Below the pieces are notes generated by a model. The model had not been told where the DNA came from, searched no databases, and worked only from the letters and a program-made list of their open reading frames with translations. Positions 10,547-57,594 of a stretch of 57,673 nucleotides of DNA are shown here, one piece after another. Position 1 is the first letter of the stretch; every line of letters starts with the position of its first letter. The DNA is from Emiliania huxleyi CCMP1516 (Eukaryota): assembly GCF_000372725.1 (NCBI RefSeq), contig NW_005201223.1, forward strand, positions 342,657-400,329, given 5' to 3'. The position numbers and the translations under genes are program-made.

Positions 10547-11896
10547 TCAGGGCATCGTCAGCCCGCCATCGACCGACAGGCTCTGCCCGGTCACCGCGTT
10601 CGACGCGTCCGAGGCGAAGAAGACGCACGCCTGTGTGTGTGTGTGTGGCAGCGCCGCCTGCTTGAGTGTCGACGTCTGTGCTACTCCCTCTTCGACGCGC
10701 CGCCGTTCAGCGGTGGTCCGGCTGTTCCTCCCCTCGATCTACTTCTGTCAGTGGGCAGGTGATTGGGAGGCAGGCCGGCGGCGTGCCACCCACCGCGATC
10801 GAAAGGCGAGTGTCGTCTCCGGGTGCTCTCAGTCGGCGGCCGATTGCGCGTCGTGCAAATCGACGCGTTGGACCGTGCGTACATCTACCTGCACGCCTCG
10901 GCAAAATCGTTGACCGTCGTCGTCTTGCGCAGTGGCGTGCCGGCGGACACAAAGCCAAACACCTCCTTGGTCGTTAGGGCCGACGCGTCGGTCGTCTCGA
11001 GCAGGCCGCCCGCCACCAGGTTGACGCGCACGCCGGACGGCCCCAGCTCCGCGGCGAGGTTGCGCGTGAGGCCGACGAGCGCCGCCTGCGGGAAGGCTCA
11101 AGGAAGTGTCTGGGCAAGGGGCTGGGTGGTGCGCGTGAGGCCGACGAGCGCCGCCTTCGCCGCGGTGTAGTCGTAGTACGTGACGACAGGGTTGTACACC
11201 TGCGGCGTGAACTCACCAATGTCAGGGTGTGAATACGGTGTCGTGCAGCATCGCGTGCATACACCGGCTACAACTAGAATTGAGAATACAGTTGATTGCG
11301 TGTCCTCTCTAGTGCTCGCCGGGACACACGGATCTGTATAACCATCTAGGGCTGTCGACGAGGTTGGAGCCGATGTTGACCACCTTCCCGAACTTGGACG
11401 CCTCAAACGAGGGCAGCGCTGCCTGCACCATGTTGACGGCGCCGGCGAGCGTACCTCTCATCTGCTGCTCCAGGTCCTCTGTCGACACCGTCTTAATGCT
11501 CGCCATGGATGAGCCCGGGTCGAACTTGTAGCGGGGCAGCGCATTGTTGACAACGACGCTGACCTTCCTGCCAAAGTGCGTCTCGGCATCAGCGACCAGC
11601 TTCACCATGTCCTCCTTGACCGTCACGTCGCCCTGCGCGGCGAGGGCGCGCGACGGCCACGCGGCGTTGATCTCGGCGGCGACGGCTTCGCCCTTCTCCT
11701 TGCTGCTGAAGTAGTTCACCACAACAAACGCTCCCTCACGGGCGTACACCCGTGCGAGCTCGGCTCCAACGCCACGCGATGCGCCAGTGATGACGGCGAG
11801 CTTTCCCGCCAGCTGGCCGACGGCCAGAGAGGAGGAGTCGGCGCACTCCTCCTTTGCGAGTGCGGCGAGCAGGCTGCAGCAGAGCAGGAAGGGCAT
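10547..11896 (-). CDS. classical SDR, 3-oxoacyl-ACP reductase paralog (PRK08642/OarX-like), 4 exons, possible signal peptide
   Basis: TGASRGVG, VVNNA, NIGSNL/VYNPVVTYYDYTAAK/AALVGLTRNLAAELGPSGVRVNLVAGGLLETTDAS...TPLRK/ACVFFAS..VTGQSLSVDGG. Confidence 0.9.
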
Positions 11897-20004: not shown

Positions 20005-21879
20005 ATGTTCGCAAAGACCCGCTCGCAGGGCACTGCTCACGAGCAGGAGCGCTCAGTCTCGCCGGCCGTGGTCCTGCCGAGCAGGGATAGCCAGGACGCC
20101 GAGGAAGAGGGTCTGCTAGTCAAAGCAGAACACCTTTCGAGCGGGCTGAGTGGGCGGATGCCGAATCTCTCGCCTTTCCACGCCGGCGTCTGCTGCCTCC
20201 TCTCTGTCCAAAACAGCTCATACGTGCTGCTGCGGCGCTACTCGTCGGGTGTGCTGCACGAGGAGGCGTCGGCGCAGTCGATTCTCGCGGTTGGCGAGGT
20301 GCTCAAGCTGTGCTTCTCGTGGCTGATGATCCTCCGTGAGTCGCCGGACGATCCAGGCGAGGCACGCCTCCACGACAGCGCGAAGCGTGGACCGCGCTGG
20401 TTTGCAGAGACGAGCCTCAAGCTTGTGCGCACGTCAGCAAAGATGGCGGTGCGCCGCGCCCTTGCACGCTCGCGGCCCTCAGCCCGCCGGCCCGCCAGCA
20501 GCCTCGCTGCCGCTCGCACCGGCTGGGGAGCTGGGGCGGGAGGTTGCGGGGTACCTCGACACGCCAGCTCTCCGCCCCCGCTGCCACCGCACCGCCGCCG
20601 CCGCCGCCACTGCCGCCACTGCCACCTCCGCCGCCCAAGCCGCCGCCGCCGTCGCGAGCCGTCACCGATCCGGCCGTTGCCTCCGCCCCCGCAGGTGCCC
20701 GCGCTCATCTTCCTTGGTATGAACCTCCTCTCCTTCGTCGCGCTGGAGCGCATCTCTGCCTCGTCCTTTACGCTCATCCAGCAGGCGACACTTCCGAGAC
20801 ACTTCCGAGACGCTTCCGAGACGCTTCCGAGACACTTCCGAGACCGATGCCAACCCGCGAGCGTCGTGGCCAGGCACCTCTCCTGCCGCTCCTCCATTGC
20901 CTCTGCTGCCGCCCACCCCCCTCCCCTCCCCGCTCGCGCCTTGCATGACCGACGCCCGTCCGCCTGTCCCGCCCTGTCCCCAAGCCCCGCCCACCCCGCA
21001 GACAAAAATCCTCTTCACCGCCGTCCTCTCGCGGCTGCTGCTGCAGAGGCTCCTCTCGCTCGCGCGGTGGCGGGCGATCCTCACCCTCTTCCTCTCGGTG
21101 CTCATCATCTGCCACCAGACGCAGCCGCAAGCCGCGTGCGCGCCGCCGCCGCGGGAGACGCTCGCCACTGCGGAGCACATGCAGCAGGCAGCAGACATGC
21201 GCGAGGCCGTGGCGGGCGAGGGCGGCGGGCCGACGGAGCGGGCGTGGCACGACTACGTCGTCGGCGTGAGCGCTGTCACTCTCGAGGCGATGCTCTCTGG
21301 CCTGAGCAACGTCTACTTTGAGAGGGTGCTCAAGTCGACGGCGCTGTCGTTGTGGGAGAGAAACGTCCAGCTGGCGGGCTACTCTCTGCTCATCTACGTC
21401 CCGATGGCGCAGCACGCTCACCCGGGCGACGGCATGTCCCGCGGCTGTCGTGCCAGGGGGGGGAGCGCCTTCGACCACTCTTCCCTGCAACGTAGGCGAC
21501 ATGCTGCATGGCTGGTCGGGGGTGACGGTGGTGGTCGCGTGTCTCGGCGCGCTCGGCGGGATCCTCATCGGGTGAGCACGAGATCGCGGGGAGATTGCGG
21601 GAGATCGCGGGGAGATTGCGCGCGCGGTTGGGACCAGTTGTTCTCAGGACCAGGGGGTGGGTGGGGTGCCTCTCCTGAAGTCACACGCCTGCTCGCGCCT
21701 CGGCCGTTAGGCTGGTCCTCAAGTACTGCGACTCCATCATCAAGAACCTCGCCCTCTCCACCGCCATCATCACCACGGCCACCCTCGACCACTTTGTATT
21801 CCACGGGCCTATGAACCTGCCAATCATCGCGGCGGCCGGCTCCGTCCTCATCTCGATCATCAACTACACAGACGCGTGA
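20005..21879 (+). CDS. nucleotide-sugar transporter, SLC35A family (UDP-Gal/CMP-Sia-like), spliced
   Basis: GEVLKL, VPALIF..NLL, QTKILFTA, SGLSNVYFERVLK, LWERNVQL, VLKYCDSIIK. Confidence 0.9.
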
Positions 21880-34280: not shown

Positions 34281-34436
34281 TAGAAAGAAAGAAAGAAAAC
34301 AGATAACCCAAGGGAGGGATGGGAAAAGAAAGAAAGAAAACAGATAACCCAAGGGAGGGATGGGAGGACGGCACGAAACCACAAAGAAAGAAAGAAAGAA
34401 AACAGACACGCCAAACGAGGAATGGGAAGAAAGGAC
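34281..34436 (+). promoter_or_regulatory. tandem partial copies of the shared upstream module
   Basis: three units of GAAAGAAAGAAAACAGA..., two followed by TAACCCAAGGGAGGGATGGG; ~90 bp before ATG 34527. Confidence 0.45.
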
Positions 34437-37941: not shown

Positions 37942-40385
37942 TCAGCGGCGCGGGCGCGTGGAGGCGAAAACGAGAGCGCTTGTGATCGCCACGCTCGCGA
38001 CGCTGCACGCCAGCACGGCGTGCGATGTGCGGCGGTGCTGCGCCCGGAGCAGCCGCATCTCGTCGGCGAGGCTGCTCACCTGCTCGCGGCGCACGCCCGG
38101 CGTGAGAGGGACGGCGGCGGACGTCTCCTCGCACCCGGTCGATTCTCGGAGAGGGCGCGCGCCTCCCGCTCGTGAGCAGTCGCCGCCTGCGCGAGAGCTG
38201 CGCGGAGCTCGCACCGCAGCGTCTCCGCGCTGAGAGGGCCCTCCTACACGGGGCCGTCTCTCGAGGGCGTGAGAGCGCGCGGGGAGAGCGCGCGGCCGTT
38301 TGCGCCCGCTTGCGCCCGCTCCTCCTCCGCAGAGCCCCGGGGCTGGCCCGGCGCCATCACGACGGCATCGGGCTCGTCGGCGGCGGCCGAGACTGCGCCG
38401 TTGGTCAGCGAGGCGCGGCCGCTGCCGTTGATCACCGACCCAGTCTCCGACGCGTCGCTTCCGGTGCCGGGCATCTGGTGCAGCGCCCCTCGGATGAGGG
38501 CGAGGATGTCGAGCACGCCGACGGGCTCGCCTACGTCTCGCGCAATCTCGGGCAATCTCGGGCAATCTCGGGCAGTCTCGAGGAGCACGCTGAGGGGCTC
38601 GAGGAAGGCGTCCTCGGCGATCCCTCGGCGATCTCTCGGCGATCTCTCGGCGATCTCTCGGCGATCTCTCGGCGATCTCTCGGCGATCTCTCGGCGATCT
38701 CTCGGCGATCTCTCGGCGATCTCTCGGCGATCTCTCGGCGATCTCTCGCCCGACTGCCGCACGACGGGCACGTTGCGATAGCCGGAGCCCTCCAGCTGCG
38801 AGAGCGCGTCGAGCACCGAGGCCGAGACAGGGAGGGTGTGCGGGTCCGGCGTCATGACGGCGCCGACCTGCGGGGAAGGGTCCGAGAAGCTTCCGAGGGG
38901 AAGGGTCCGGTGAGGCAAGCACCGCGGCGGCGGGCAAGGCCTTCGTGTCGCGCGGGTCGAGCCCGGCGGCGATGACGCGGAANNNNNNNNNNNNNNNNNN
39001 NNNNNNNNNNNNNNNNNNNNNNNNNNNNNNNNNNNNNNNNNNNNNNNNNNNNNNNNNNNNNNNNNNNNNNNNNNNNNNNNNNGTCGTGGGAGAGGGCTTT
39101 AGTCGTGGGAGAGGGCTTAGTCGTGGGAGAGGGCTTAGTCGTGGGAGAGGGCTTAGTCGTGGGAGAGGGCTTAGTCGTGGGAGAGGGCTTAGTCGTGGGA
39201 GAGGGCTTAGTCGTGGGAGAGGGCTTTAGTCGTGGGAGCATCTCCAGGACGGCGCCTCGCCGCGCACGAGGACAGCGCCCCTCCTCGCCACCATCACGCT
39301 CGCCGCCTGCTGCACCGACGCCTACAAGAAAAAGAAATACATGCACGAAAAGAAATACACACGCGCGCCGCCTGCTGCACCGACGCCGTCGGGGCGACGC
39401 AGCCCGCCTGACAAGAAAAAGAAACACATGCGGGAAAAGAAACACATGCCTCCGCCATCGCAGCCCGCCTCCGCCATCGCGCAACCCTCCTCCGCTGGAT
39501 CGTCGAGGAGTGAGGCCAGGCTCACCTGATCCGGAGAGACGCTCGAGGTCAGGGCGAGAGGAGGTCGAGACGCGGGCCGCGGGGCGACCGCTCGCCGCAT
39601 GGCCCAGCTGGTGCCCGTGCAGCCCCGCCAGGGCCTCCGAGAGGCACTTTGCCACGTCGAGCAGCCCGGCCACCGAGCCAGCCTACAAGAAAAGAAACAC
39701 GTGCAAAAAAGAAACAAAAGCGCCACGCCGGCCACCGAGCTAGCCTCGTCGAGGACTGGTAGGTGCCTGCGGACGCGGGGAGAGCGGTGTCGCACTCGTC
39801 ATCACAGGGAGTGGGCACGCGTGCCGTGTGGAGTGGGCACGAGGTGCCGTGGGACGGCCGCCGGGCATTGGGGGCCGCTCGCCGGAAGCAGTTGTCCACC
39901 ATAGTGCACAGCGCCGAGGACGCCGTCGCATTCCAGAGCACGGTCTGAGGGTTGCGCGTCATGACGGCCTCGACGGCGGTGGCGTCTGCGTCGCGCCCGA
40001 GCGCCACCACTTTCCGGCACACGTCCGTGTCGGTGACGATGCCGACCGCCGCGCGAGACGACGAGGATGTCCGCACGAGCGCGGCGTCGGCGTTCGCGGC
40101 GGCCATCTTGCGCGCGGCGTCAGAGACGGAGATGCCGGCGTCGATCAGAAGCGCCTTGCGCGGCCGCAGCGCGGCAACGCTGCGCCCCGACCGCTGGGAG
40201 CTGCGGACGGCGCCGAGGTCTATGACCGCCTCGCTGCCAACCGACGCAGTCTCGCCGTTGTTGGACGACCTGCGTGCATCTTGCGACTGCTGGATGATGT
40301 CTCGCAGCGCGCGGCGCGCGTGCGACTTCATCGGCCCGAACAGTATCGCCCGGCGGGACACGAAGCCTGGCTCGGGGCCCTCCAT
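37942..40385 (-). CDS. CBS-domain protein (CBSCBSPB-like) with C-terminal TM, multi-exon, spans an N-gap
   Basis: VGIVTDTDVCRKVVA, VMTRNPQTV, FR/HLPVLD, GLLDVAKCL, VMTPDPHTL..YRNVPVV; hydrophobic C-terminal tail. Confidence 0.85.
38615..38748. repeat. 11-bp intronic tandem repeat (GGCGATCTCTC)n
   Basis: seen directly in the sequence. Confidence 0.95.
39083..39238. repeat. 18-bp tandem repeat (GTCGTGGGAGAGGGCTTA)n
   Basis: seen directly, adjoining the N-gap. Confidence 0.95.
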
Positions 40386-40549: not shown

Positions 40550-40790
40550 GTCCTCCTCCCCCATCCCTCGTTTGCATTGCTGTTTTCTTTCTTTCTTTCT
40601 TTCCACAAAACTCCCTCGCACAACACTGGGCCGCACGGGACTGGCGCGCACCACACACCTCTCCTTAAAATCCCTGTGTGGTGGCGGCGTGCCGTCCTCC
40701 CATCCCTCCCTTGGGTTGTCTGTTTTTTTCTTTCTTTCTTTGGCGCGCACCGCGCACCGTGCGCGCCAGTCCCGTGCCCAGTGTTGTGCA
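40550..40790 (-). promoter_or_regulatory. shared upstream module, here enclosed by ~32-bp inverted repeats
   Basis: 40646-40741 matches 57324-57420; 40618-40651 is inverted at 40759-40789. Confidence 0.5.
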
Positions 40791-40897
40791 AAAAAGAATT
40801 TAGCGGGGGGCACTGGACTGTCCTGTGTGGCTGTGTGCCGCCAAGGCGGGACGCACTCAGGGACAGTGGCGACGGGACGCGGCTCGAGGGGCGACTC

Positions 40898-50453: not shown

Positions 50454-52576
<2,123 letters not shown>

Positions 52577-52879: not shown

Positions 52880-55800
52880 TCACTGCTGCCCGACGAGGTC
52901 AAAGTAAACGCCGCCGGGGCCAATCTGCAGCAGCTCGTCGTGGGTCCCCTGCTCGACAACCTTGCCGCGCCTCACCACGGCGATCTTGTCGGCGTTGCGG
53001 ATGGTCGAGAGCCGGTGCGCGATCGTGATGGTCGTGCGCTTCTGCTTGGCCATGAGCTCGTCGAGCGCTGCCTGCACGATGCGCTCGCTCTCGTTGTCGA
53101 GCGCGCTCGTCGCCTCGTCGAGCAGCATGATGGCGGGCTTTCGCACCAGCGCGCGCGCGATGGCGACGCGCTGCTTCTGCCCCCCGGAGAGCTGCCCGCC
53201 GCGCAGCCCCACTTGGGTGGCGTAGCCGTCGCCGAGGTCGTTCGTGATGAAGGTGTGCGCGTTGGCCGCGACCGCCGCCTCCTCGATCTCGCTCTGCGTG
53301 GCGCCCTCCTTGCCGTAGCCGATGTTCTCGGCCACCGTGCCCTCAAACAGCACGGGCTCCTGCCCCACCATCCCAATCTGCTGGCGGAGCCACCGCAGGT
53401 TGAGGCTGCGGATGTCTGCGCCGTCGAGCAGCACGGCGCCCGCCTGCGGGTCGTAGAAGCGTTGCAGCAGCGCGACGATCGTGCTCTTGCCAGAGCCGCT
53501 CGGGCCGCACAGCGCGACCGTCTGCCCCGCCTCAATCTCGAGGGAGTAGCCGCGGCAGGCAGGCCGGTCGAGAGCCGTCGGGTAGGCAAACACGACGTCG
53601 CGGACCGAGATCTCGCCGCGCACGGGCGGCAGCCGCTCGCCCTCGGCCGAGGTTGGGTCGATCAGCGACGCCTGGTCGAATCGCTGGAAGAGCTCCTTGG
53701 CGGCCTTGGCCGCGGCCTTTGCGTCGGTGGCCATCATGGCGTGGCCCGAGGCCAGGAAGGTGACCATCATCGTCGCGATGATTGGCACCATGATCTTGTC
53801 CATGATGAGCATCGACGAGCTGTCGCAGCCGGCCTCGGCCGCGCCGAGCGCCCCGACCGACGCGAGCCACAGCCCGTAGAAGATCTGGGCGCCCATCATC
53901 GAGTAGACGATGGCGAAGGCGAGGAAGAGGCCCACGCCCGCCTGCACCGCCTTGCGCTTCCCGACCGCGAGCAGCTTGTCCATCTGCTTGCAGTAGTCCT
54001 CATAGAACTTGACCTCGGCGTTGAAGGAGGCGACGGTCCGGATCCCGAGCACCACCTCGCCAATCACCGCGCCGGCCGACTTCTTGACCTCGTTGTCGTT
54101 GTCCTTGCTCGCCTGCTTTGCCTGGTCCATCGGCATGGCCGCCTGCATCGCGATGCCCATGGTGACGCCCATGATCGGAAGGCAGCCGAGCGTGACCAGC
54201 GCGACGCGCCAGTCGCCCCAGTAAAACATGGTGAAGAGCATCGTGCCGATCAAGAAGAGAAACTTTGTGATTGCGCCGAGCTGCTCGCCGACGAGCCCCT
54301 GCACGAGCGCCACCCTCGCGCCCAGGAACTCGGTCAGCGCGCCCATCGTGTTGGCCTCGTAGTCGAAGTAGCCGACCTCCATCCGCAGCAGCTTGGCCAT
54401 CAGCGTGGTGCGCAGCGCCGTCGTCAAGTGCTCGCCGGTGATGCCGAGGGTCGTCGCCGAGATGAACTCGAAGGCGTGCTGCCCGAGGCCGACGGCGATG
54501 AAGATGAGGCCCCACAGCACGCCCTCGGACTCGACCTTGTCGGGCGATGGGTAGCTCAGCGCCGTGAGCGAGCGGACGAAGAGCAAGCCGAGCAAGCCCT
54601 GCACGATACCCGTGACCGCGGCGCACGACACGCCGATGACGTAGAGGTAGCGGTCGCTCTTTGGCGACATTTGGAGCAGCCGCCTCACCGGCCCCTGCTT
54701 CTTCTGGCCCGCCGCTGCGGCCGCAGCCTCCTCCTCCGCCGTCTCGACCACCGCCTCGACGATGCCGAGCGACGCCCCGATCGAGCTCGTCTGGTGCAGC
54801 GCCTTGAGCCCCTCCACCACCTCAACGTGGCGTACGCTGATGGAGTCCTCCACCTGCGAGGCCTCCGCCGCCACGCGCATCACCTCGACGTCCTTGGCCT
54901 GGTTCGCCTGCTGCTTGGCGGCGAGGCCGTGGAAGACGCCGCCCTCCCCGACGGCGAGCAGGTCGTCGTACGTCCCCTCCTCCACGATGACGCCCTTCTG
55001 GACGACGGCGATCTTGTCGCAGTACTTGATCGTCGTCAGCCGGTGCGCCACCGTGACCGACGTGAAGTGGCTCTTCCTCATGATGTCGTCGAGCGACGCC
55101 TGCACGATGCGCTCGCTCGCGTTGTCGAGCGCCGACGTCGCCTCGTCGAGCAGCAGGATCGCCGGCTGCTTGATGACGGCGCGCGCGATGGCGATGCGCT
55201 GCTTCTGGCCGCCCGACAGCTTGCCGCCGCCCAGGCCCACCTGGGTGTCGTAGCCGTCGCCGAGGCTCTCGACGATGAAGTCGTGCGCGTTCGCCGCGCG
55301 CGCCGCGGCCTCCACCTCCTCGCGGGTCGCCTTGTCCTTGCCAAGCGCGATGTTCTCTGCGATGGTGCCCATGAAGAGCATCGGCTCCTGCCCGACTAGC
55401 CCGATCTGCCGGCGCAGCGCCTTGACGTTCATCGCCCTGAGGTCGACGCCGTCGATGAGCACCGACCCCGAGAGCGGGTCATAGTACCGCTCGAGCAGCT
55501 GGATGAGCGTCGACTTACCCGCACCCGACGGGCCAACCAGCGCGCACGAGGTGCCGGCCGGGATGCTCAGCGAGTATCCGTTGCAGATGAGGTGGTGGGG
55601 CGCGGTGGGGTAGGCGAAGGTGACGTCCTTCACCTCGATGGCGCCCTTGAGCACGACCGTGAGGCCCTCCTCCGAGAAGGCGTCGATCGTCGGCACGCGC
55701 GCCACCACCTCGAGCACGCTGCGGCACGCCGTGACGCCCTTGATCAGCGCCTGCACTGGCCCCGCCAGCTGCGAGAGGCCAAAGGCGCCCTGGAAGACGG

Positions 55801-57146
55801 CCTGCGTGGCGATGTAGATGGCGCCGAGCCCCAGCGCGCACTCGACGCTCCTGCGGCGGCGGGGCGGGAGCATGTGGCGAGGGCGGTGGCGAGGGCGGCG
55901 GCAGGGGCGGCGGTGTGACGCTCCTGTCGTAGCTGTTGGGCGGGAAGAGCTCGTCGTAGCTGCTGTCGGCAGGGTCGCCGTCCACGAACTGGTTCCAGAA
56001 CAGCGTGTCGTCGCCAAAGAACCGGGTGAATGCGCGCTCCCCGATGACCTGCGCCGCCGTGCTGCAAGTGAACTTGAAGTTCTCGAGGGCCTCGCCAGTA
56101 GTCGCGCTCGTGCGGTCTGCGCACGCCGCACCAACGCCGTCAGCCTGATCTGGCTGGGTGGTGTCGACGAGGAACAAGTCGTACGAGTCGCAGCTCTCGG
56201 CGCAGTAGTTCCTCGCGTCACCCAGCAAGGCGGTGTAGTCCACCGTGGTGTCACGGTACTCGGAGACGAGCAGCTGGCACGCCAGCAGAATCCCAGAGGC
56301 CATCACGTAGTAGACGGACGCGTTCATCGTGGAGAGGGCTGCAAAGATCTTGGTCGAGAGGCGGATGGCCGCGCGCTCGGCGTTGGCGAGGTTGGCATCG
56401 TACCGCTGCAGAGACCTCTCCTCGAGGCCGAGCGACGCGACCGTGCGGATCGACGAGAGCACCTCGGAGGCGACGCCGCCGGCGCCTGCGTACGCGTCGG
56501 CCAGGAGCTTGGTGCGCTGCTCGAGGTAGTAGAGGAGCAGTGAGACGGAAGGCAGGTAGGCGACGATGGCCACGGCGAGCGTGACGAGGGCGACAGCCCA
56601 CGACTCGCGCAGCGAGATGTAGAGCCCCACGGTGATGGACCCGATGGTTGTGAAGATGTTGGCGTTGGATAGGTGAAGCGCCTTCTCGATGTAGACGATG
56701 GACTCACCCATGCGCGTCGAGAGCTCCTGCGGCTGGTTGACGTCGTACCAGCCGACGTCCTGCCGGAGGATCGACTTTAGGTACTCCTTCTTCCAACGCG
56801 TGATCTGACGGTTCTTGGAATAGTCGAGCAGCAGCGCCGCGATTCCTTGGCAGCCGCCAATACCCAGGCCCCAGTACGTCATGTTGACGAGGAGCATGAT
56901 CCCGAGATCATAGTAGTTTGTGGTCGAGTTCAAGTCGAAGAAGTCGGCAAACGTCACCAGGGCGAGGACCTGCAGTGCTCCGAAGCCGACCATAAAGGCG
57001 CAGCCGGCGACGATCAAGAAGGCATCGAACCGAGTAGCAAAGAAGAAGAGCGAACGCAGGAAGGAGCGGCGGCGCTGCTGAGGCGGGTCGTCTGGCGACT
57101 GCCTCGAAGGCGTCTTGCGTCTCGGCTCCGCAGAAGAACTGCGCAT
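52880..57146 (-). CDS. ABCB1: full-size ABCB (MDR/P-glycoprotein-like) transporter, one intron at 55851-55923
   Basis: TMD-NBD-TMD-NBD; GPSGAGKST and GPSGSGKST; LSGGQKQRIAIARA and LSGGQKQRVAIARA; LLDEATSALD; AHRL. Confidence 0.93.
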
Positions 57147-57306: not shown

Positions 57307-57420
57307 AGGGTGGGCGACGGATAGCGCACCACACACCTCTCCTTAAAATCCCTGTGTGGTGGCGGCGTGCCGTCCTCCCATCCCTCCCTTGGGTTGTCTG
57401 TTTTCTTTCTTTCTTTCTTT
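57307..57420 (-). promoter_or_regulatory. shared upstream module
   Basis: near-identical to 28408-28520; ~160 bp before ATG 57146. Confidence 0.5.
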
Positions 57421-57594
57421 CCGTCAACGTTCTTCACCTTCCTGTTGGCTGAGTGTCTTGTCTTGTGGTTCTGTGTGTCGCTCCTGTGTGGCCGTCATCG
57501 CCCGTCCTGCGTCCACCCATACCGCGTTGGTGTCCCAGTCGTTGGGAGAGAGAGATTTTTTATTAATTCTTGTCGTTGGTCGGACTGAGATCTG

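What the first reader, a model, noticed from the sequence alone, without database searches (positions are those of the whole stretch)
39301..39746. Three related ~60-bp GC-AG introns whose 5' ends duplicate the next exon
Seen: in the CBS gene, introns 39683-39744, 39408-39468 and 39322-39386 (minus strand) all start with GC. They share a filler like GTGTRTTTCTTTT..GCAYGTRTTTCTTTTTCTTGT(C)AG. Each is bracketed by direct repeats: 18/19 nt (39666-39684 / 39728-39746), 12 nt (39398-39409 / 39459-39470) and 22 nt (39301-39322 / 39366-39387). Removing them restores a CBS motif (AMAE/AGCVAPT/ASVQQAASVMVARRGAVL) with a 21-nt microexon. Inference: serial recent intron gain, in which an inserted pyrimidine tract plus AG duplicates the target and the exonic GC becomes the donor. 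This could explain the excess of GC donors.
Basis: partly seen in the sequence, partly recalled or inferred. Interest (0 to 1): 0.85.

Follow-up and report, generated by a model that had tools for sequence, protein, structure and literature searches.

The report
Introns seeding new neighbouring introns
Three short introns in one gene of the alga Emiliania huxleyi are spliced out, share the same tail and each begin with a copy of the coding sequence that follows them, likely because repair of DNA breaks copied one intron's tail into nearby coding DNA, a rare case where the source of new introns may be visible.

Summary
Three GC-AG introns (62, 61 and 65 nt) lie within 423 bp of a CBS-domain gene, and RNA contigs join across them. 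Each starts with a 12-28 nt copy of the splice site and next exon. Each ends in a homologous two-unit T-rich tail (candidate branch A, pyrimidine tract, AG) found nowhere else in the window.

Phaeocystis-like orthologues lack introns at these sites. They carry their own introns of the same build, filled with telomere repeats, including filled and empty pairs. A fourth intron with a 27-nt duplication and an unrelated filler lies at 11086-11154. Intron A is shared with a sister lineage, and its intronic copy keeps the ancestral exon codon.

Best reading (0.6): staggered-break repair with templated insertion, in which the first intron's 3' module was copied locally twice. A dispersed element or an RNA template is not excluded, because no genome was available. 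The claim that this explains the GC-donor excess is not supported here: 7 of 17 GC donors precede non-GC exons. Verdict: new variant of a known kind (repair-born introns).

The parts
37942..40385 (-). Host gene: CBS-domain protein (467 aa in the spliced relative P0014; Pfam CBS, 3 stretches), ten introns
   Evidence: source name E. huxleyi CCMP1516 for the gene models P0002 and P0008
39767..39882 (-). Ordinary GC-AG intron (116 nt), no duplication
   Evidence: RNA joint
39745..39766 (-). 22-nt microexon left between that intron and intron A
   Evidence: pieces 39742-39764
39683..39744 (-). Intron A, 62 nt, GC-AG
   Evidence: skipped in 4 of 4 RNA runs; retained form in sister lineage P0001
39724..39746 (-). 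Duplication A, intronic copy (second copy 39662-39684). 18/19 nt identical, and it extends to about 23 nt if the ancestral Gly-Val codons are counted. The one early mismatch is at donor position +4.
39683..39723 (-). Filler A: two T-rich units; the only A in the last 45 nt besides the AG is at -20 (candidate branch point)
   Evidence: branch role inferred
39526..39595 (-). Ordinary GC-AG intron (70 nt) with CTGAC at -27
   Evidence: RNA joint in 3 runs
39408..39468 (-). Intron B, 61 nt, GC-AG
   Evidence: X15 joint, X10 loose end, retained in X12; retained in P0004, P0017, P0019
39459..39470 (-). Duplication B, 12/12 nt (second copy 39398-39409)
39448..39461 (-). Extra 14-nt copy of the upstream exon end (original 39467-39480): a locally templated insertion between the duplication and the filler
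   Evidence: mechanism inferred
39408..39450 (-). Filler B, two units, ends TCAG, A at -22
39387..39407 (-). 21-nt microexon (AGCVAPT)
39322..39386 (-). Intron C, 65 nt, GC-AG, donor ACG|GC
   Evidence: X12 and X15 joints. The joint cannot tell this placement from one slid by 15 nt, which gives the same mRNA.
39360..39387 (-). Duplication C, 27/28 nt (second copy 39295-39322)
39322..39363 (-). Filler C, two units, A at -21
11086..11154 (-). Intron D in a short-chain dehydrogenase gene: 69 nt, GC-AG, perfect 27-nt duplication, unrelated C-rich filler, in-frame stop
   Evidence: relatives' proteins read straight through the site; splicing not seen in RNA here

Best explanation
These are three spliced GC-AG introns that likely arose one after another when staggered DNA breaks in coding sequence were repaired with a templated insertion, with the tail of the neighbouring intron probably serving as template. 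Inferred steps: (1) A break with an overhang at an (A)G|GC site is filled on both sides, which duplicates 12-28 nt. (2) Before ligation, the 3' end primes by 2-4 nt microhomology on nearby DNA and copies about 40 nt of T-rich sequence ending in AG; in B it first copied 14 nt of the upstream exon. (3) The first copy's G|GC becomes the donor, which this alga's spliceosome accepts. The filler brings a branch A, a pyrimidine tract and the AG, so splicing restores the exact mRNA and the insertion is tolerated. (4) Because the copied tail is a working 3' splice module, each such intron is a ready template for the next one nearby. The source of the first filler is unknown.
For: Shown: exact removal in RNA and proteins. 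Fillers are homologous and confined to 423 bp of 57.7 kb. Duplication lengths vary (19, 12, 28 nt) and there are no terminal inverted repeats (longest end-to-end inverted match 4-6 nt, as in ordinary introns). B holds a direct copy of flanking DNA. No intron at site A in 4 of 4 outgroup loci, nor at B/C in 3 of 3 that cover them. The intronic copy of A keeps Gly-Val, as in the sister exon and the outgroup, while the window exon reads Gly-Leu, so the copy records the exon as it was at insertion. The same build occurs with other fillers: D and telomere repeats in L002 and L004, each with an empty site in another locus; the duplication therefore belongs to the process, not to one element. Established knowledge: Pol-theta end joining leaves AT-rich direct-repeat insertions templated mostly within 30 bp, longer ones in several rounds (PMC7165422, passages). 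Daphnia neointrons carry 4-12 bp exon-intron repeats from staggered breaks (PMC4202315, passages). E. huxleyi uses GC donors in 56-65% of junctions (PMC4028052, passages).
Against: No genome-wide search for the filler was possible, and the zero hits in public collections are uninformative because E. huxleyi DNA is not in them. A lies over 210 bp from B, further than typical Pol-theta templates. Single Pol-theta tracts are rarely over 10 bp, whereas about 40 nt were copied here. Duplications are longer than in Daphnia. The order of events is unresolved: the sister A filler is 7, 8 and 7 edits from A, B and C. No empty allele was seen in the species or its sister lineage. The outgroup is distant (about 50% identity) and aligns with a gap near site B. 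The repair enzyme is not identified.
Confidence: 0.6

Rival explanations
1. RNA-templated copying: a reverse transcriptase (retroelement, telomerase or Pol theta) primes at a nicked AG|GC site on the free 3' end of an excised intron or on pre-mRNA of the same gene, copies back to about the branch point, and leaves a variable-length duplication as in target-primed reverse transcription.
For: All three fillers end exactly at the AG with no donor-exon sequence. The conserved unit starts at the candidate branch A (-20 to -22) and the upstream unit is a 3'-truncated repeat of it, as a stop-and-reprime at the branch would give. Duplications of 12-28 nt are in the range recalled for LINE insertions (recalled, no call). 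Telomere-repeat fillers in relatives show that an RT-type fill occurs in this phylum.
Against: Selection for an intact protein also forces the filler to end at AG. One two-unit tail copied whole is simpler than three separate double rounds. Retrotransposition is not normally confined to the template's own gene (recalled). No RT or RNA intermediate was seen.
Confidence: 0.15
2. A dispersed non-autonomous element (introner or retroelement tail) of about 40 nt inserted three times, with local hopping.
For: Shared filler of near-constant length (41-43 nt) that carries the acceptor while the donor comes from the duplication, an arrangement described for introners (PMC9860276, passages). E. huxleyi has five listed introner families (supplement rows).
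Against: Duplications are of three different lengths, against 3-9 bp for introners. No terminal inverted repeats. No other copy in the window. The listed families differ in length and GC (37 or 70 nt, 54-67% GC) from these introns (61-65 nt, 50-52% GC); their sequences were not seen. A protein search with the retained-intron frame found 3 candidates and 1 hit, the gene itself (weak).
Confidence: 0.15
3. The introns are older. Their 5' copies came from later slippage of exon sequence into existing introns, and their tails were homogenised by conversion within the gene.
For: Within-intron units share variants (TA in both units of C, TG in both of B), so some homogenisation occurs. A is shared between lineages.
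Against: Outgroups lack the introns. The six other CBS introns tested have GC-rich tails unlike the filler (T fraction 0.04-0.20 against 0.52-0.56). Filled and empty pairs in relatives show that duplication and insertion arise together. It needs three separate duplications placed exactly at splice sites.
Confidence: 0.08
4. Assembly artefact or unspliced insertions.
For: The scaffold has gaps nearby; B is retained in one main RNA contig.
Against: Independent samples hold the introns with their own variants, and RNA contigs skip them exactly.
Confidence: 0.01

Closest known systems
Neointrons of Daphnia pulex made by repair of staggered double-strand breaks (Li et al. 2014, PMC4202315; passages read)
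   Same: Direct repeat shared by the intron end and the adjacent exon; internal repeats in the filler; exact splicing.
   Different: Repeats there are 4-12 bp, here 12-28 nt. The source there is mostly unknown; here a homologous source lies 21-270 bp away in the same gene. Donors here are GC. Population-level empty alleles were shown there, not here.
Locally templated insertions of Pol-theta-mediated end joining (PMC7165422; passages read)
   Same: Direct-repeat copies of flanking DNA, AT-rich, several rounds, short microhomologies.
   Different: Shown in mammalian cells; tracts are mostly under 10 bp and within 30 bp of the break. Not linked to intron birth in the passages read.
Introners (Gozashti et al. 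2022, PMC9860276; passages and supplement rows read)
   Same: [quoted passage not shown]
   Different: Introners have fixed 3-9 bp duplications or none, often inverted ends, and are dispersed. Their pipeline needs similarity to start within 10 intronic bases of both ends and drops pairs with similar proteins, so by my inference introns of this build would be missed.
Interstitial telomeric sequences inserted at breaks (PMC7215372; passages read)
   Same: Filler inserted at a staggered break with duplication of the target; matches the L002 and L004 introns directly.
   Different: The filler in the window is not telomeric. In mammals none lies in exons and duplication is rare (3 of 66 loci).
Intron gain by tandem duplication of an AGGT segment, and intron transposition by reverse splicing (PMC3443670; passages read)
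   Same: Duplicated AG|GY supplies the splice sites; sister introns resemble each other.
   Different: Here two thirds of the intron is foreign filler, and only the 3' part is shared. Whole-intron transposition would leave no duplication and would copy the 5' end too.

Membership tests
GC-AG (U2-type) spliceosomal intron | Removed from RNA at GC...AG, restoring the frame | tested here: met
   B is also found retained
GC-AG (U2-type) spliceosomal intron | Branch point and pyrimidine tract | tested here: inconclusive
   Tract present; conserved A at -20 to -22 but no CTRAY-like motif; lariats not seen
Break-repair neointron (Daphnia type) | Direct repeat of the adjacent exon end at the intron boundary | tested here: met
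   19, 12 and 28 nt
Break-repair neointron (Daphnia type) | Absent in outgroup orthologues | tested here: met
   4 of 4 loci at A, 3 of 3 at B/C; distant outgroup, about two independent lineages
Break-repair neointron (Daphnia type) | Empty allele in the same or a sister species | not tested
Break-repair neointron (Daphnia type) | Made by an end-joining pathway | not testable with these tools
   Inferred from junction anatomy only
Introner (DNA-transposon type) | Four or more dispersed copies with end-to-end similarity | tested here: inconclusive
   3 copies, one gene, 5' thirds unrelated; whole genome not held
Introner (DNA-transposon type) | Fixed short target duplication (3-9 bp) or none | tested here: not met
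   19, 12 and 28 nt
Introner (DNA-transposon type) | Terminal inverted repeats | tested here: not met
   4-6 nt, same as control introns; some introner families also lack them
Interstitial telomeric insertion | Filler made of telomere repeats | tested here: not met
   Not in A-D; met for L002 and L004 introns
Pure tandem-duplication intron | Whole intron is a copy of exon sequence | tested here: not met
   41-43 of 61-65 nt are filler
Whole-intron transposition (reverse splicing) | Similarity over the full intron and seamless insertion | tested here: not met
   5' parts are locus-specific duplications
Non-LTR retro-insertion (TPRT) | Known parent RNA or element with a fixed 3' end, dispersed copies | not testable with these tools
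   Fixed 3' end and variable duplication fit; no parent found; Rfam 0 matches

The most novel reading that the evidence does not exclude
Haptophytes run a general intron factory: breaks at (A)G|GY/GC/GA sites are repaired by templated or reverse-transcribed fill with long target duplication. The fill is telomere repeat in Phaeocystis-like lineages and the branch-point-to-AG tail of existing introns in Emiliania, possibly copied from the excised intron RNA. Introns thus breed neighbours in their own gene. A large share of Emiliania introns would be decayed scars of this process: 4 of 26 curated here have long copies and 10 of 26 start with at least 4 identical bases. The class would be invisible to introner surveys.
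Probability: 0.25. Interest if true: 0.85.

Novelty: new variant of a known kind. Interest (0 to 1): 0.62.

Why it matters
Where new introns get their sequence is a long-standing open question; the papers read report that sources are rarely found (PMC4202315, PMC4683709). Here a likely source sits next door, the target duplication preserves the ancestral exon, and the species has many public genomes and transcriptomes, so the model can be tested at once by computation. If the pattern holds genome-wide, it is a transposon-free way for introns to multiply locally, it creates microexons, and it would be missed by current introner searches. It also shows how a GC-tolerant spliceosome in a GC-rich genome turns common AG|GC sites into proto-splice sites.

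Tried and rejected
Filler pattern scans gave 0 hits in metagenome contigs and viral contigs. These are uninformative: the scan with the host protein returned no E. huxleyi locus, and common E. huxleyi repeats gave 0 hits in viral and prokaryote collections.

Rfam on 39250-39800 gave 0 matches. A protein search with the retained-intron frame found 1 hit among 3 candidates, the gene itself (weak). The HMMER search of representatives never ran. No whole genome is held.

A 13-nt match between filler A and the repeat upstream of the gene (40786-40798) has E 0.036 in T-rich sequence and was rejected as a source. A mixed junction in C (inner CAG|GC donor with the TAG acceptor, which would repeat five residues) is not seen in any stored protein.

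A general excess of similarity over intron positions 3-14 is not significant once A-D and one ambiguous intron are removed (91 against 86.5, p 0.26). The six RNA- or protein-supported ordinary CBS introns alone show no excess (1 of 6, p 0.5). My note that two introns look like decayed long copies is therefore only a hint.

Paper searches listed no paper on this build in haptophytes. The 2013 genome paper is not held, and its text and supplements, the introner family sequences and bioRxiv supplements may bear on novelty.

Full report
Setting. The stretch lies in a CBS-domain gene on the minus strand (40385 to about 37942; Pfam CBS on P0014). Source names of matching gene models give Emiliania huxleyi CCMP1516. 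No whole genome is held. GC donors are the majority in this species, 56-65% (PMC4028052, passages).

Observation. The duplications are 18/19 nt (A), 12/12 nt (B) and 27/28 nt (C) including the bases before the splice site. The fillers are 41-43 nt, 33-42% GC, made of two T-rich units. They are homologous: pair scores 52-60 against 28-31 for shuffles, 0 of 2000. No other copy lies in the window or the fetched loci. Three uniform copies would span 423 bp or less with probability about 1.6e-4.

Splicing. Contigs of 4 RNA runs from 4 studies were laid. A is skipped in 4 of 4. C is skipped in X12 and X15; X10 breaks at the repeat and X14 does not reach it. B is skipped in X15 and by a loose end in X10, and retained in the main X12 contig. 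X10 also has an unspliced contig across B and C with three differences, all intronic. Stored proteins P0014, P0018 and P0020 read through all junctions without extra residues. Contigs cannot give retention rates. A skip in RNA could in principle be an empty allele, but X10 holds both forms of B.

Age. P0001 is a transcript of a sister lineage (its spliced form P0020 is 97% identical to P0014). It retains intron A with a perfect copy of seven codons and a filler whose last unit is 0-1 edits from those of A, B and C; the whole intron is at least 8 edits from the window's. The window's intronic copy encodes Gly-Val where the window exon has Gly-Leu, and the sister exon and the outgroup have Val. 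The copy therefore preserves the exon as it was, and A predates that split. B and C were seen only in samples close to the window; their state in the sister lineage is unknown.

Outgroups. A scan with alignment A1 gave 8 loci from 132 pattern matches. L001-L005 are orthologues 82-92% identical to a protein cluster that includes Phaeocystis antarctica; L006-L008 look bacterial and were dropped. L001-L004 have no intron at site A, and L001, L002 and L004 have none at B or C; L005 has a different intron a few codons after site A. L002-L004 are close to each other, so this is about two independent lineages, and the alignment has a gap near B. These loci carry their own insertions of the same build, filled with telomere repeats. 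L002 2755-2888 has a 14-nt duplication and GC...AG ends, and the site is empty in L004. L004 1445-1536 has a 23-nt duplication and GA...AG ends, and the site is empty in L001. Their splicing was not tested.

Rest of the window. A fourth intron, D (11086-11154), has a perfect 27-nt duplication and an unrelated filler; relatives' proteins run straight through the site. I curated 26 introns in 7 genes: 5 by RNA, 4 by P0014, 3 by relatives' proteins and 14 by reading frame only. Two introns with one end in a gap were left out. Ten of 26 start with at least 4 bases identical to the next exon (permutation mean 1.9, p 2e-5). Without A-D and one ambiguous donor it is 6 of 21 (mean 1.8, p 0.003). The wider measure over positions 3-14 is then not significant (p 0.26), and the supported ordinary CBS introns alone show nothing. 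The donor dinucleotide equals the exon start in 15 of 26 against 11.7 expected, and 7 of 17 GC donors precede a non-GC exon. The sample therefore does not show that duplication explains the GC excess, although the L004 case shows that a duplication can create a GA end.

Mechanism. Shown: variable long duplications, no inverted ends, a shared 3' module with a conserved A at -20 to -22, tight clustering, an extra 14-nt copy of flanking exon in B, and 2-4 nt overlaps at the junctions. Inferred: staggered breaks repaired with templated synthesis, which copied the neighbour's tail; the duplicated G|GC then served as donor. This fits locally templated, AT-rich, multi-round insertions of Pol-theta end joining (PMC7165422, passages) and Daphnia repair introns (PMC4202315, passages). 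It stretches both in tract length and distance. I give it 0.6. An RNA template (0.15) explains why fillers end at AG and why the unit starts at the candidate branch A. A dispersed element (0.15) cannot be excluded without the genome. Older introns with later duplication get 0.08.

Known kinds. It works like a Daphnia repair intron and meets the two defining features I could test. It fails the fixed short duplication and inverted-end tests for DNA-type introners. E. huxleyi's five listed families differ in length and GC, and their duplications are marked unknown or absent (PMC9860276, passages and supplement rows; sequences not seen; file cut when stored). It is not whole-intron transposition or pure tandem duplication (PMC3443670, passages), nor the seamless sister introns of Hypoxylaceae (PMC8469720, passages). 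The telomere-filled cases match interstitial telomeric insertions (PMC7215372, passages). PMC4683709 (passages) stresses how rarely sources are found. A term search of bioRxiv 2024.06.04.597373 gave no haptophyte mention in the main text. Nine paper searches listed nothing on this build in haptophytes; the 2013 genome paper was not available. Earlier AI notes of this scan describe similar repair-scar and telomere-filled introns in other marine protists; I did not check them.

Verdict. A real and well-supported set of lineage-specific introns, a new variant of repair-born introns, with the added interest that the likely source is the neighbouring intron and that the pattern may be common in haptophytes. 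Interest 0.62.

Noticed in passing
L002 2755-2888; L004 1445-1536; L003/L004 about 1027-1240 in L004; L005 3457-3509: Phaeocystis-like orthologues carry many intron-like insertions made of TTAGGG/CCCTAA repeats, several with 14-30 nt target duplications and lineage-specific presence; L001 lacks them over 1543-2454.
   Followed up: partly
window 11086-11154 (-): Intron D: perfect 27-nt duplication, filler holding one unit of the common intronic 11-mer repeat (GACACTTCC).
   Followed up: partly
window 38531-38749, 38244-38321, 51634-51707, 51827-52109, 21426-21495: All 7 curated introns that end in GTAG (these five plus A and C) start with at least 3 bases identical to the next exon, against 5 of 19 others (Fisher p 0.001, noticed after the fact). 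Four have a 5-nt match, possibly a separate insertion class with short duplications.
   Followed up: partly
window 38244-38321 (-) and 51085-51473 (+): Two GA-AG introns (one supported by P0014, one by frame only).
   Followed up: partly
window 39496: RNA contigs of three runs carry 15-18 extra coding bases here relative to the window, which lacks about 5-6 codons that P0014, P0018 and P0020 have.
   Followed up: no
window 39741 and 39382: The single early mismatch in duplication A (+4, G to A) and an allele in X10 of intron C (+5, C to G) both move the donor towards the usual consensus; hint of selection on young donors.
   Followed up: partly
window 40560-40800, 34284-34365, 57330-57430: A dispersed repeat with inverted arms (40618-40651 / 40759-40789) upstream of the CBS gene; parts recur at two other places in the window.
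   Followed up: no
window 38536-38748, 39083-39238, 20787-20844, 51139-51464, 51830-51918, 52050-52106: Many introns are filled with 10-18 nt tandem repeats of a few shared families; they may be fillers of the same process.
   Followed up: no
window 11200-11359 and 38080-38162 (-): Intron starts match the next exon at 9 of 12 and 12 of 17 positions; possible decayed duplications, not significant as a class.
   Followed up: partly
window 52883-57146 (-): An ABC transporter (two ORFs, 543 and 997 aa, overlapping in different frames near 55820-55870, next to a short repeat); a frameshift or small intron was not resolved.
   Followed up: no
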